This document shows, one piece after another, positions 54,041-54,307 of a stretch of DNA of 64,000 nucleotides. This DNA is from Escherichia coli (GTDB taxonomy: Bacteria; Pseudomonadota; Gammaproteobacteria; Enterobacterales; Enterobacteriaceae): assembly GCF_003019035.1 (NCBI RefSeq), contig NZ_CP027447.1, one strand, 5' to 3'. Below the pieces are notes generated by a model. That model was not told the DNA's origin, did not search any database, and saw only the letters and a list, made by a program, of their open reading frames with translations. The stretch's first letter is position 1, and each line of letters opens with the position of its first letter. The translations under genes and the position numbers were made by a program.

Positions 54041-54307
54041 TCACACAATAACTCTGAGATCGCAGATTGTTTTACTTTTACAGCTTCCGTCCCCCCATTG
54101 TTGGGCAAATATAGATTGGGCCAGAGCACGAAAGTTAATACCACGTTCGAACAGCTCCTCCAACAGCACGACAAGATGCCACATACTGCGCCCCAGTCGG
54201 TTCAGTTTACAGACTAGCAGTGCGTCCCCTACCGATAATGTCCTGAGCCGTTTGTTCTGTCCGGGCCTGCTGCCACGGTTATGCGCTGCAGTGGTAACTC
54301 TAAGCAC
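54041..54307 (-). pseudogene. pinH: Serine recombinase/DNA invertase remnant (pinH-like fragment)
   Basis: 88-aa ORF containing LLVCKLNRLGRSMWHLVVLLEELFERGINFRAL, the resolvase/invertase N-terminal catalytic-domain pattern, but truncated and without an HTH domain. Confidence 0.6.

What the first reader, a model, noticed from the sequence alone, without database searches (positions are those of the whole stretch)
54041..54307. Truncated serine invertase (pinH-like) remnant next to the autotransporter
Only about 88 codons of a resolvase/invertase catalytic domain remain, with no DNA-binding domain. Together with the amber-split gene and the tRNA-Ile nearby, this indicates that the region right of the ssrA island is the scar of an older, now decayed mobile element that used tRNA-Ile as its insertion site.
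Basis: partly seen in the sequence, partly recalled or inferred. Interest (0 to 1): 0.2.

Follow-up and report, generated by a model that had tools for sequence, protein, structure and literature searches.

The report
Dead phage invertase fragment (pinH)
This is the already-annotated E. coli pseudogene pinH, a dead one-third of a phage tail-fibre DNA invertase gene; it is debris from a prophage that inserted at the tmRNA gene ssrA, not at the nearby tRNA-Ile gene, and it is ordinary.

Summary
The 88-codon ORF at 54041-54307 (minus strand) is real and really resembles an invertase (Pfam Resolvase E=6.6e-9; Mu Gin structures E=5e-14). Only about 57 in-frame codons come from an invertase (Pin residues 38-94; about 54088-54268 at DNA level). 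The catalytic serine, the E-helix and the DNA-binding domain are all missing, and no crossover sites exist. It is the orthologue of K-12 pseudogene pinH (b2648), with the same truncations in about 3000 of 5426 complete E. coli genomes.

Its 5' end is fused to an IS3-family remnant. Its 3' end abuts the ypjA autotransporter cassette.

The "older decayed mobile element" reading holds, but the insertion site was ssrA, not tRNA-Ile:
- pinH lies between two displaced copies of the ssrA 3' end (48965-48973 and 54436-54457).
- The left copy is followed by a 154-bp module. In intact ssrA-integrating prophages that module is followed, 2-4 kb on, by a full-length pin gene on the same strand as pinH.
- The right copy is preceded by a CP4-57-like island end and followed by a Fels-2-type phage arm.
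- ileY has no repeated 3' fragment and no adjacent integrase, and it is absent from 46% of genomes.

Verdict: ordinary and already known.

The parts
39760..40122 (+). ssrA (tmRNA gene), the integration hot spot
   Evidence: ARAGORN tmRNA with tag ANDENYALAA; PGAP annotation.
40123..48964 (.). Present-day ssrA island (integrase, MobQ relaxase and others); the newest layer
   Evidence: Annotation of the identical strain SCU-301; GC 30-43%.
48965..48973 (+). Displaced ssrA 3'-end core 1 (CGCCAGC--CA), the right junction of the present island
   Evidence: Sequence; alignment with ssrA ends and with the K-12 and strain 4750 right junctions (alignment A2).
48974..49124 (+). 154-bp 'ssrA-downstream module' (spacer plus a hairpin and T-run)
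   Evidence: 88% identical to phage LLS directly after its annotated tmRNA pseudogene/attP; also found in phages Ayreon and phiNP. It follows intact ssrA in E. whittamii and Escherichia sp. E1V33. It follows full-length ssrA in prophages L142 and L161, and a 36-nt ssrA copy in phage contig L173.
49124..54082 (-). ypjA/EhaD autotransporter cassette (CDS 49134-53702 plus its upstream region), sitting in the accessory-gene slot of the old prophage; its right end cuts pin at about codon 101
   Evidence: PGAP annotation. A paralogous, internally deleted copy with the same two end points lies next to minE/ymgJ.
54041..54307 (-). The reported 88-codon ORF, a chimeric accidental ORF (IS3 orfB out of frame + pin + ypjA upstream region)
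54088..54268 (-). pinH proper: DNA derived from invertase codons ~42-101 of 184 (end points +/- 6 nt)
   Evidence: DNA alignment to pinE nt 124-302; tblastn with PinE, Fels-2 Fin and LLS Fin; 83-84% nt identity to the pin genes of ssrA prophages.
54264..54363 (-). IS3-family remnant: the terminal inverted repeat (18/18 nt, 54346-54363) joined to orfB positions ~545-623, and fused to pin codon ~42
   Evidence: blastn/tblastn against K-12 IS3A; the 18-nt repeat matches the end of an intact IS3 in strain ECCNB20-2; IS3 ORF2 hits on plasmids.
54382..54435 (+). Right end of a CP4-57-family island; only the last ~55 bp survive
   Evidence: Together with core 2 it matches the right end and right junction of K-12 CP4-57 at 52/77 positions; alignment score 44 against a maximum of 28 in 200 shuffles.
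54436..54457 (+). Displaced ssrA 3'-end core 2 (TTCAGACACCGCCAACT-CACCA)
   Evidence: 20/24 match to K-12 psaA against a maximum of 18 in 20 shuffles; alignment A1.
54458..54528 (+). Arm identical in type to the ogr-side attP arm of Fels-2-like P2-family phages that integrate in ssrA
   Evidence: 88-92% identical to Fels-2 (positions 7-83), SopEPhi, RE2010, SEN8, Cartapus and 500465-1. E. coli lysogens have ssrA running directly into this sequence.
54638..56092 (-). ypjCB (DUF5507 + DUF5508) with an in-frame amber codon at 55736-55738; a neighbour, not part of the pinH relic
56849..56924 (-). ileY, tRNA-Ile(CAU); a neighbour, not shown to be an attachment site

Best explanation
The feature is pinH, a non-functional relic (about codons 42-101 of 184) of a Pin/Gin/Cin/Hin-family serine DNA invertase. 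In its parent phage this enzyme flipped a tail-fibre segment. It now does nothing: it has no catalytic serine, no E-helix, no helix-turn-helix domain and no crossover sites.

It is a fossil inside a stack of elements that integrated one after another into the 3' end of ssrA. Each new arrival pushed the older ones, and a partial copy of the ssrA end, further to the right.

The most likely parent is a temperate phage of the type represented today by prophages with this layout: ssrA, a 154-bp module, 2-4 kb of accessory genes, pin on the minus strand, invertible tail-fibre genes, then baseplate genes.

Of that phage, only the 154-bp module (48974-49124) and the pin fragment survive. The ypjA autotransporter cassette now occupies the accessory-gene slot and cuts pin at about codon 101. 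An IS3-family element and an associated deletion removed pin codons 1-41 and all the rest of the phage. This fused the relic to the last ~55 bp of an older CP4-57-family island. That island end is followed by displaced ssrA core 2 and by the arm of a still older Fels-2-type element.

Shown: the homologies, the junction positions, the orientations, and the existence of intact counterparts. Inferred: the order of events, and which element owned pin.
For: - Invertase identity and extent.
- Known pseudogene, with conserved truncations. 3001 of 5426 genomes hold >=80% of 53832-54640 in one piece. No relative retains the invertase C-terminal half, and the only one with an N-terminus is the chimera P0008.
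- 5' junction with an IS3 remnant.
- 3' junction with the ypjA cassette, whose end points recur at the minE/ymgJ paralogue.
- Displaced ssrA cores on the + strand at 48965-48973 and 54436-54457.
- Fels-2-type arm after core 2.
- CP4-57-like end before core 2.
- The 154-bp module is phage-borne in LLS, Ayreon, phiNP and contig L173.
- Intact counterparts: of 80 viral contigs fetched with the junction CCACCA|ATCATGATTGGAC, 15 carry a full-length Pin on the minus strand 2.1-4.2 kb to the right of the module. L142 and L161 read smpB, full ssrA, module, accessory genes, pin(-), tail fibres, baseplate. Phage LLS has the same order.
- pinH is 83-84% identical in DNA to these pin genes, the best match seen (against 75-82%).
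- Tandem arrays at ssrA exist in living strains, for example ECCNB20-2 (P2-like prophage plus a P4-type-integrase island).
Against: - The 154-bp module also follows intact, island-free ssrA in E. whittamii and Escherichia sp. E1V33. The copy in the window could therefore be the host's own flank rather than a phage-supplied one, and its sequence does not discriminate (alignment A2).
- pinH is only 53% identical in protein to the LLS invertase, and about equally close (68-70%) to PinE and Fels-2 Fin. Sequence alone does not name the parent.
- No integrase, tail or head gene of the proposed parent survives.
- The IS3 breakpoint lies inside the IS rather than at its end, so at least two deletion events must be assumed.
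Confidence: 0.8

Rival explanations
1. One reading: ypjA-pinH-ypjCB is the remnant of an island or prophage that integrated into the 3' end of tRNA-Ile (ileY).
For: - The 3' end of ileY faces the segment.
- The flanks are low in GC.
- In E. albertii the DNA on the 3' side of ileY holds different genes, so that side is variable.
- An intact IS3 sits there in strain ECCNB20-2.
Against: - No second copy of the ileY 3' end anywhere in the window.
- No integrase relic.
- A displaced ssrA core and a Fels-2-type arm lie between pinH and ileY, so pinH is on the ssrA side of an ssrA junction.
- ileY itself is missing from 46% of E. coli genomes and from E. whittamii and E1V33. It behaves as part of the variable block, not as a conserved anchor.
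Confidence: 0.05
2. pinH still came in through ssrA, but belonged to a different layer. Either it was carried in the CP4-57-family island whose right end survives at 54382-54435, or it belonged to a second, tandem Fels-2-type P2-like phage (these carry an invertase ~7 kb from the attachment site).
For: - The CP4-57-like end lies only ~115 bp from pinH.
- Fels-2 Fin is 70% identical in protein and 76% in DNA to pinH, and is on the same strand relative to ssrA.
- P2-like prophages at ssrA in E. coli carry pin.
Against: - For the Fels-2 arm actually present, pinH is on the wrong side (left of the core), so a second copy has to be invented.
- The ~70 bp left of core 2 matches no int-side sequence of any P2-like phage.
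- K-12 CP4-57 itself, the only member of that island family examined here, has no invertase gene.
- The module-to-pin(-) geometry is seen directly in 15 intact phage contigs.
Confidence: 0.12
3. The 154-bp module in the window is the host's native ssrA flank. On this view the 10.7-kb block 49125-59857 (ypjA, pinH, junction relics, ypjCB, ileY, ygaQ) replaced the ~320 bp found in other Escherichia by recombination with foreign DNA. That DNA happened to contain an old ssrA-array junction.
For: - Island-free Escherichia have ssrA, the module, ~330 bp, then glaH.
- Strain 4750 has the module plus 320 bp where the window has the block.
- The change is a replacement, not a clean insertion.
Against: - It needs an ad hoc import of a block that itself carries an ssrA-type junction.
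- It does not explain why pin sits at the phage-typical distance and strand from the module.
- Even under this view, pinH originated in an ssrA array in the donor.
Confidence: 0.08
4. The 88-codon ORF encodes a functional small protein, or the fragment has a regulatory role, for example for ypjA.
For: - The locus is conserved at 90-95% identity in about 3000 genomes.
- The ORF overlaps the ypjA upstream region.
Against: - The ORF is a three-part chimera with out-of-frame ends.
- Relatives show frameshifted and variably truncated versions: P0019 and P0023-P0025.
- The conserved Asp of the DRLGR motif is Asn here.
- The ypjA upstream homology with its paralogue stops at 54082, before pin.
Confidence: 0.01

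Closest known systems
pinH pseudogene (b2648) of E. coli K-12 MG1655
   Same: Same locus (between ypjA and ypjB/ypjC, next to ileY), 95.5% nt identity, and the same two truncation points. The same IS3 fragment, the CP4-57-like end with core 2, and the Fels-2-type arm follow it.
   Different: Nothing essential. In this strain ypjB and ypjC form one gene (ypjCB) interrupted by a single TAG, and the island at ssrA is a different one (integrase + MobQ relaxase instead of CP4-57).
Phage tail-fibre DNA invertases: Pin (e14), Gin (Mu), Cin (P1), Hin/Fin (Salmonella, Fels-2)
   Same: 63-70% protein identity over Pin residues 38-94 and 75-84% DNA identity to phage pin genes. It has the same strand relative to the attachment site as in intact ssrA prophages.
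   Different: Only one third of the gene remains. There is no catalytic serine, no E-helix, no DNA-binding domain, no crossover sites and no invertible segment.
Temperate phages carrying the ssrA 3' copy plus the 154-bp module (Escherichia phage LLS, Ayreon, Citrobacter phage phiNP, and IMG/VR prophages such as L142, L161, L173)
   Same: The order is the same: ssrA end, module, accessory genes, pin on the minus strand.
   Different: In the window, everything of the phage apart from the module and 181 nt of pin is gone. An autotransporter cassette occupies the accessory-gene slot.
Tandem accretion of integrative elements at the tmRNA gene (described by K. P. [quoted passage not shown]
   Same: There are repeated partial ssrA 3' ends in direct orientation, separating elements of different integrase types (P2-type, P4/CP4-57-type).
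   Different: Here the older layers are reduced to junction fragments of 50-180 bp.

Membership tests
Small serine recombinase / DNA invertase (Pin-Gin-Cin-Hin) | N-terminal catalytic domain with the nucleophilic serine (YVRVSTxxQ motif, Ser10) | tested here: not met
   Homology starts at Pin residue 38-42. No N-terminal match in any frame of 53700-54800. The upstream DNA is IS3-derived.
Small serine recombinase / DNA invertase (Pin-Gin-Cin-Hin) | Resolvase domain (PF00239) above the curated threshold | tested here: met
   36.5 bits against a cut-off of 23.3, but only profile positions 47-102 of 145 are covered.
Small serine recombinase / DNA invertase (Pin-Gin-Cin-Hin) | E-helix and C-terminal helix-turn-helix DNA-binding domain | tested here: not met
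   No match beyond Pin residue ~101. The sequence continues into the ypjA upstream cassette.
Small serine recombinase / DNA invertase (Pin-Gin-Cin-Hin) | Pair of inverted 26-bp crossover sites (hix/gix/pix type) flanking an invertible segment next to the gene | tested here: not met
   No match to the degenerate 26-mer with up to 3 mismatches in the whole window. The core AAACCNNGGTTT gave 2 hits against 2.55 expected, neither nearby. No convincing inverted repeats in 53000-55800.
pinH pseudogene of E. coli (b2648) | Orthologous position between ypjA and ypjB/C-ileY, with the same truncated extent | tested here: met
   Present in 3001 of 5426 complete genomes.
Genomic island integrated at a tRNA gene (here ileY) | Direct repeat of the tRNA 3' end at the far boundary of the island | tested here: not met
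   Only the gene itself matches with up to 3 mismatches in 25 nt. Ungapped scans give only background.
Genomic island integrated at a tRNA gene (here ileY) | Integrase gene or relic adjacent to the tRNA | tested here: not met
   Between ileY and pinH there is only ypjCB (DUF5507/5508) and non-coding DNA. The four phage loci compared by tblastx (Fels-2, LLS, Ayreon, phiNP), which include the Fels-2, LLS and Ayreon integrase genes, found no relic there; no dedicated search with P4-type or other island integrases was made.
Genomic island integrated at a tRNA gene (here ileY) | Conserved tRNA gene with empty sites in related genomes | tested here: inconclusive
   ileY with its flanks occurs in 2906 of 5426 genomes. 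The others lack ileY altogether rather than showing an empty site. E. albertii has ileY with different neighbours.
Tandem array of elements integrated at ssrA | Partial copies of the ssrA 3' end, in the orientation of ssrA, separating the layers | tested here: met
   Core 1 at 48965-48973 and core 2 at 54436-54457.
Tandem array of elements integrated at ssrA | Junction arms homologous to known ssrA-integrating elements | tested here: met
   Fels-2-type arm at 88-92%; CP4-57-like right end; 154-bp module of the LLS/phiNP-type phages at 87-88%.
Tandem array of elements integrated at ssrA | Integrase gene for each layer | tested here: not met
   Only the newest island keeps its integrase. The older layers have lost theirs.

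The most novel reading that the evidence does not exclude
The whole 10.7-kb block 49125-59857, present in about half of E. coli, could be the layered residue of at least three successive integrations at ssrA. On that reading the adhesin gene ypjA/EhaD and the second tRNA-Ile(CAU) gene ileY are mobile-element cargo that became fixed, not native chromosomal genes.
Probability: 0.25. Interest if true: 0.3.

Novelty: already known. Interest (0 to 1): 0.1.

Why it matters
It matters little. pinH is an annotated pseudogene and has no plausible activity.

The modest gain is a corrected history. The relic marks an old prophage at the ssrA hot spot, not a tRNA-Ile island. Its two break points can be assigned to an IS3-family element and to the ypjA autotransporter cassette. 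That helps anyone annotating the boundaries of islands at ssrA, or asking how ypjA/EhaD came to lie there.

Tried and rejected
1. P0008 / L005. This is a 116-aa 'pinH with an intact N-terminus' on a 1050-bp metagenome scaffold. It looked like a less decayed allele. However, none of 5426 complete genomes holds >=80% of the scaffold in one place. Its left 680 bp is an ordinary prophage tail-fibre + pin locus, and its right 500 bp is the K-12 pinH locus. I treat it as an assembly chimera joined in the ~140 bp the two share.

2. Crossover-site and inverted-repeat searches found nothing.

3. Searches for repeats of the ileY 3' end found nothing.

4. The Fels-2-type remnant as parent of pinH was rejected on geometry, because pinH lies on the wrong side of its arm.

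5. The LLS invertase itself is not a close relative (53% aa). The argument from LLS is positional, and was later backed by 15 contigs whose pin genes are 83-84% identical in DNA to pinH.

6. Literature. No paper in the library discusses pinH. Williams 2003 is not held.

7. The promoter and terminator scans were uninformative.

8. YpjCB homologues: all named hits among the best 120 listed (of 454) are E. coli or Shigella, the rest being unnamed metagenome proteins, which says nothing about an attachment site.

9. Rfam finds only the tRNA in 48500-60200.

Full report
**What is there**

The window is the E. coli smpB-ssrA ... ileY-ygaQ-glaH region, 100% identical to strain SCU-301. The reported ORF (54041-54307, minus strand, 88 aa, GTG start) exists.
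- It passes the Pfam Resolvase threshold: E=6.6e-9, but only profile positions 47-102 of 145.
- It matches Mu Gin structures 4m6f/3uj3 over Gin residues 38-95.
- It is 68% identical to e14 PinE residues 38-94, at window 54110-54280.
- PGAP marks 54110-54277 as an incomplete recombinase lacking both termini.
- K-12 calls the orthologue pseudogene pinH, b2648 (95.5% nt identity).

About 3001 of 5426 complete E. coli genomes hold the locus with both junctions in one aligned piece. Among 5.8 billion proteins, every relative is a short E. coli fragment with the same C-terminal junction. Only about 57 in-frame codons are invertase. At DNA level the pin-derived stretch corresponds to pinE nt 124-302, about 54088-54268, with a frameshift near its 3' end. 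The catalytic serine region (codons 1-41), the E-helix and the helix-turn-helix domain are all absent.

**The two break points**

- 5' side: pin codon ~42 is fused at 54264-54268 to an IS3-family remnant on the same strand. This consists of orfB positions ~545-623 and, joined to them by an internal deletion between TTACCCAG and TTACCCGG, the 18-nt terminal inverted repeat at 54346-54363. The repeat matches the end of an intact IS3 in another strain 18/18.
- 3' side: pin stops within about 6 nt of 54082. That position is the right end of the ypjA autotransporter cassette (49124-54082). The same two end points recur at an internally deleted paralogue beside minE/ymgJ, present in nearly all E. 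coli.

The 88-codon ORF is therefore an accidental chimera: out-of-frame IS3, then pin, then out-of-frame pin plus the ypjA upstream DNA. No hix/gix/pix-type crossover site or convincing inverted repeat exists.

**Which attachment site: ileY**

The tRNA at 56849-56924 is indeed ileY, tRNA-Ile(CAU); ARAGORN calls it Met because of the CAT anticodon. The neighbouring ypjCB is indeed split by one in-frame TAG. But three things count against ileY as the site:
- There is no second copy of the ileY 3' end.
- There is no integrase relic near it.
- The ileY locus occurs in only 2906 of 5426 genomes, the rest having ileX alone. Strain 4750, E. whittamii and Escherichia sp. E1V33 lack the whole block 49125-59857.

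**Which attachment site: ssrA**

Two partial copies of the ssrA 3' end lie on the + strand, in the orientation of ssrA.
- Core 1 (48965-48973) is the right junction of the present island.
- Core 2 (54436-54457) matches K-12 psaA at 20/24, against at most 18 in shuffles.
- Core 2 is followed by about 75 bp that are 88-92% identical to the ogr-side attP arm of Fels-2, SopEPhi, RE2010, SEN8, Cartapus and 500465-1. In E. coli lysogens of such P2-like phages, ssrA runs straight into this sequence.
- The ~55 bp before core 2 resemble the right end of K-12 CP4-57: 52/77 identical including the core, score 44 against a shuffle maximum of 28.

pinH lies to the left of core 2. It is therefore on the ssrA side of an ssrA junction.

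**The likely parent**

Core 1 is followed by a 154-bp module (48974-49124).
- The module is 88% identical to phage LLS directly after that phage's annotated tmRNA pseudogene/attP. It also occurs in phages Ayreon and phiNP.
- In LLS, oriented like the window, the order is: integrase, attP, module, 3.2 kb of accessory genes, a serine invertase on the minus strand, then invertible tail fibres.
- A scan of viral contigs for the junction CCACCA|ATCATGATTGGAC returned at least 120 contigs. Of the 80 fetched, 15 have a full-length Pin (94-98% identical to PinE) on the minus strand 2.1-4.2 kb to the right of the module.
- L142 and L161 read smpB, full-length ssrA, module, accessory genes, pin(-), tail-fibre genes, baseplate genes.
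- L173 shows the phage (attP) form: integrase, a 36-nt ssrA copy, the module, then pin(-).
- pinH is 83-84% identical in DNA to these pin genes, the best match found (against 75-82%).
- Nine of the contigs show the decayed host arrangement: YpjA at +169 in all nine, with pinH at about +5150 or +3834 in the five whose right flank reaches that far. Five show glaH at +688.

The window is thus a gutted version of this prophage type. The ypjA cassette sits in the accessory-gene slot. An IS3-associated deletion has removed everything to the right of pin codon 42, up to the last bases of an older CP4-57-type island.

**Caveat and rivals**

The 154-bp module also follows island-free ssrA in E. whittamii and E1V33. 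It is probably the native ssrA flank that these phages captured. The copy in the window could in principle be the host's own, and its sequence does not decide the matter (alignment A2). A host copy should, however, lie to the right of every displaced core. It would also leave the phage-typical position and strand of pin unexplained.

pinH might instead have belonged to the CP4-57-type layer or to a second Fels-2-type phage. Both still entered through ssrA. I put the ssrA-array origin at about 0.8-0.9, the module-bearing phage as parent at about 0.6-0.7, and an ileY-targeting element at about 0.05.

**Dead ends**

- The only 'pinH with an intact N-terminus' (P0008 on scaffold L005) is a chimeric assembly.
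- The literature held here says nothing about pinH.
- The YpjCB homologue search told nothing about an attachment site.
- Whether ypjCB-ileY-ygaQ are native DNA or cargo of the oldest layer remains open. E. albertii has ileY, a diverged ygaQ and glaH, but different genes on the 3' side of ileY.

**Verdict**

This is an ordinary, already annotated pseudogene.

Noticed in passing
window 49124-54082; paralogue in L013 6001-6703 (BL21(DE3), next to minE/ymgJ): The ypjA/EhaD autotransporter gene with its upstream region behaves as a discrete cassette. An internally deleted paralogue with the same two end points lies between minE and ymgI in nearly all E. coli (96% and 89% identity at the two ends).
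   Followed up: partly
window 48974-49124; L020 9271-9425; L019 9297-9448; L014 14001-14155: The 154 bp that follow island-free ssrA in E. whittamii and Escherichia sp. E1V33 are also carried, right after a 36-39-nt ssrA 3' copy, by phages LLS, Ayreon and phiNP and by many IMG/VR contigs. These phages appear to have captured the host's ssrA downstream flank and hairpin as part of their attP.
   Followed up: partly
window 56849-56924 and flanks 54500-59800: ileY (ARAGORN: tRNA-Met CAT; annotated tRNA-Ile(CAU)) is 97% identical to ileY's paralogue ileX. It sits in 34-39% GC DNA on both sides. It is present in only 54% of complete E. coli genomes, and absent from strain 4750, E. whittamii and E1V33. 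E. albertii has it, with different, effector-like genes on its 3' side.
   Followed up: partly
L003 12158-12478 (strain 4750); same in L019, L020, L022: Genomes that lack the 10.7-kb block have about 320 bp in its place. That stretch contains a sequence resembling an IS3-family terminal repeat (TGATCTTACTCACATTAGTCGACACGG...), which hints at an IS-associated deletion. The similarity is weak and was not tested statistically.
   Followed up: no
L009 / L011 (strain ECCNB20-2): A living tandem array at ssrA: a P2-like prophage, a 45-nt ssrA copy, then an island with a P4-type integrase, a 518-aa recombinase family protein and two ParB genes. An intact IS3 lies about 500 bp from ileY and replaces ypjA-pinH-ypjCB.
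   Followed up: partly
L005 (ENA metagenome scaffold, 1050 bp), protein P0008: A database protein that looks like pinH with an intact catalytic N-terminus is almost certainly a chimeric assembly of a prophage pin locus and the pinH locus. The two are joined in about 140 bp of shared similarity.
   Followed up: yes
window 54638-56092: ypjCB (DUF5507 + DUF5508) is interrupted by a single TAG here, and is split into ypjB and ypjC in K-12. All named hits among the best 120 homologues listed (of 454) are E. coli or Shigella; the rest are unnamed metagenome proteins. It is unusually variable (75-96% identity) and 34% GC. Its function is unknown.
   Followed up: partly
window 57481-59733: The alpha-amylase-like gene ygaQ is intact in this strain, whereas it is a pseudogene in K-12 and frameshifted in ECCNB20-2. 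The E. albertii copy is only 60% identical in protein.
   Followed up: no
window 40123-48964: The present ssrA island carries an integrase, a MobQ-family relaxase and an AlpA-like HTH gene, at 30-43% GC. It looks like a small mobilizable integrative element, different from CP4-57 of K-12.
   Followed up: no
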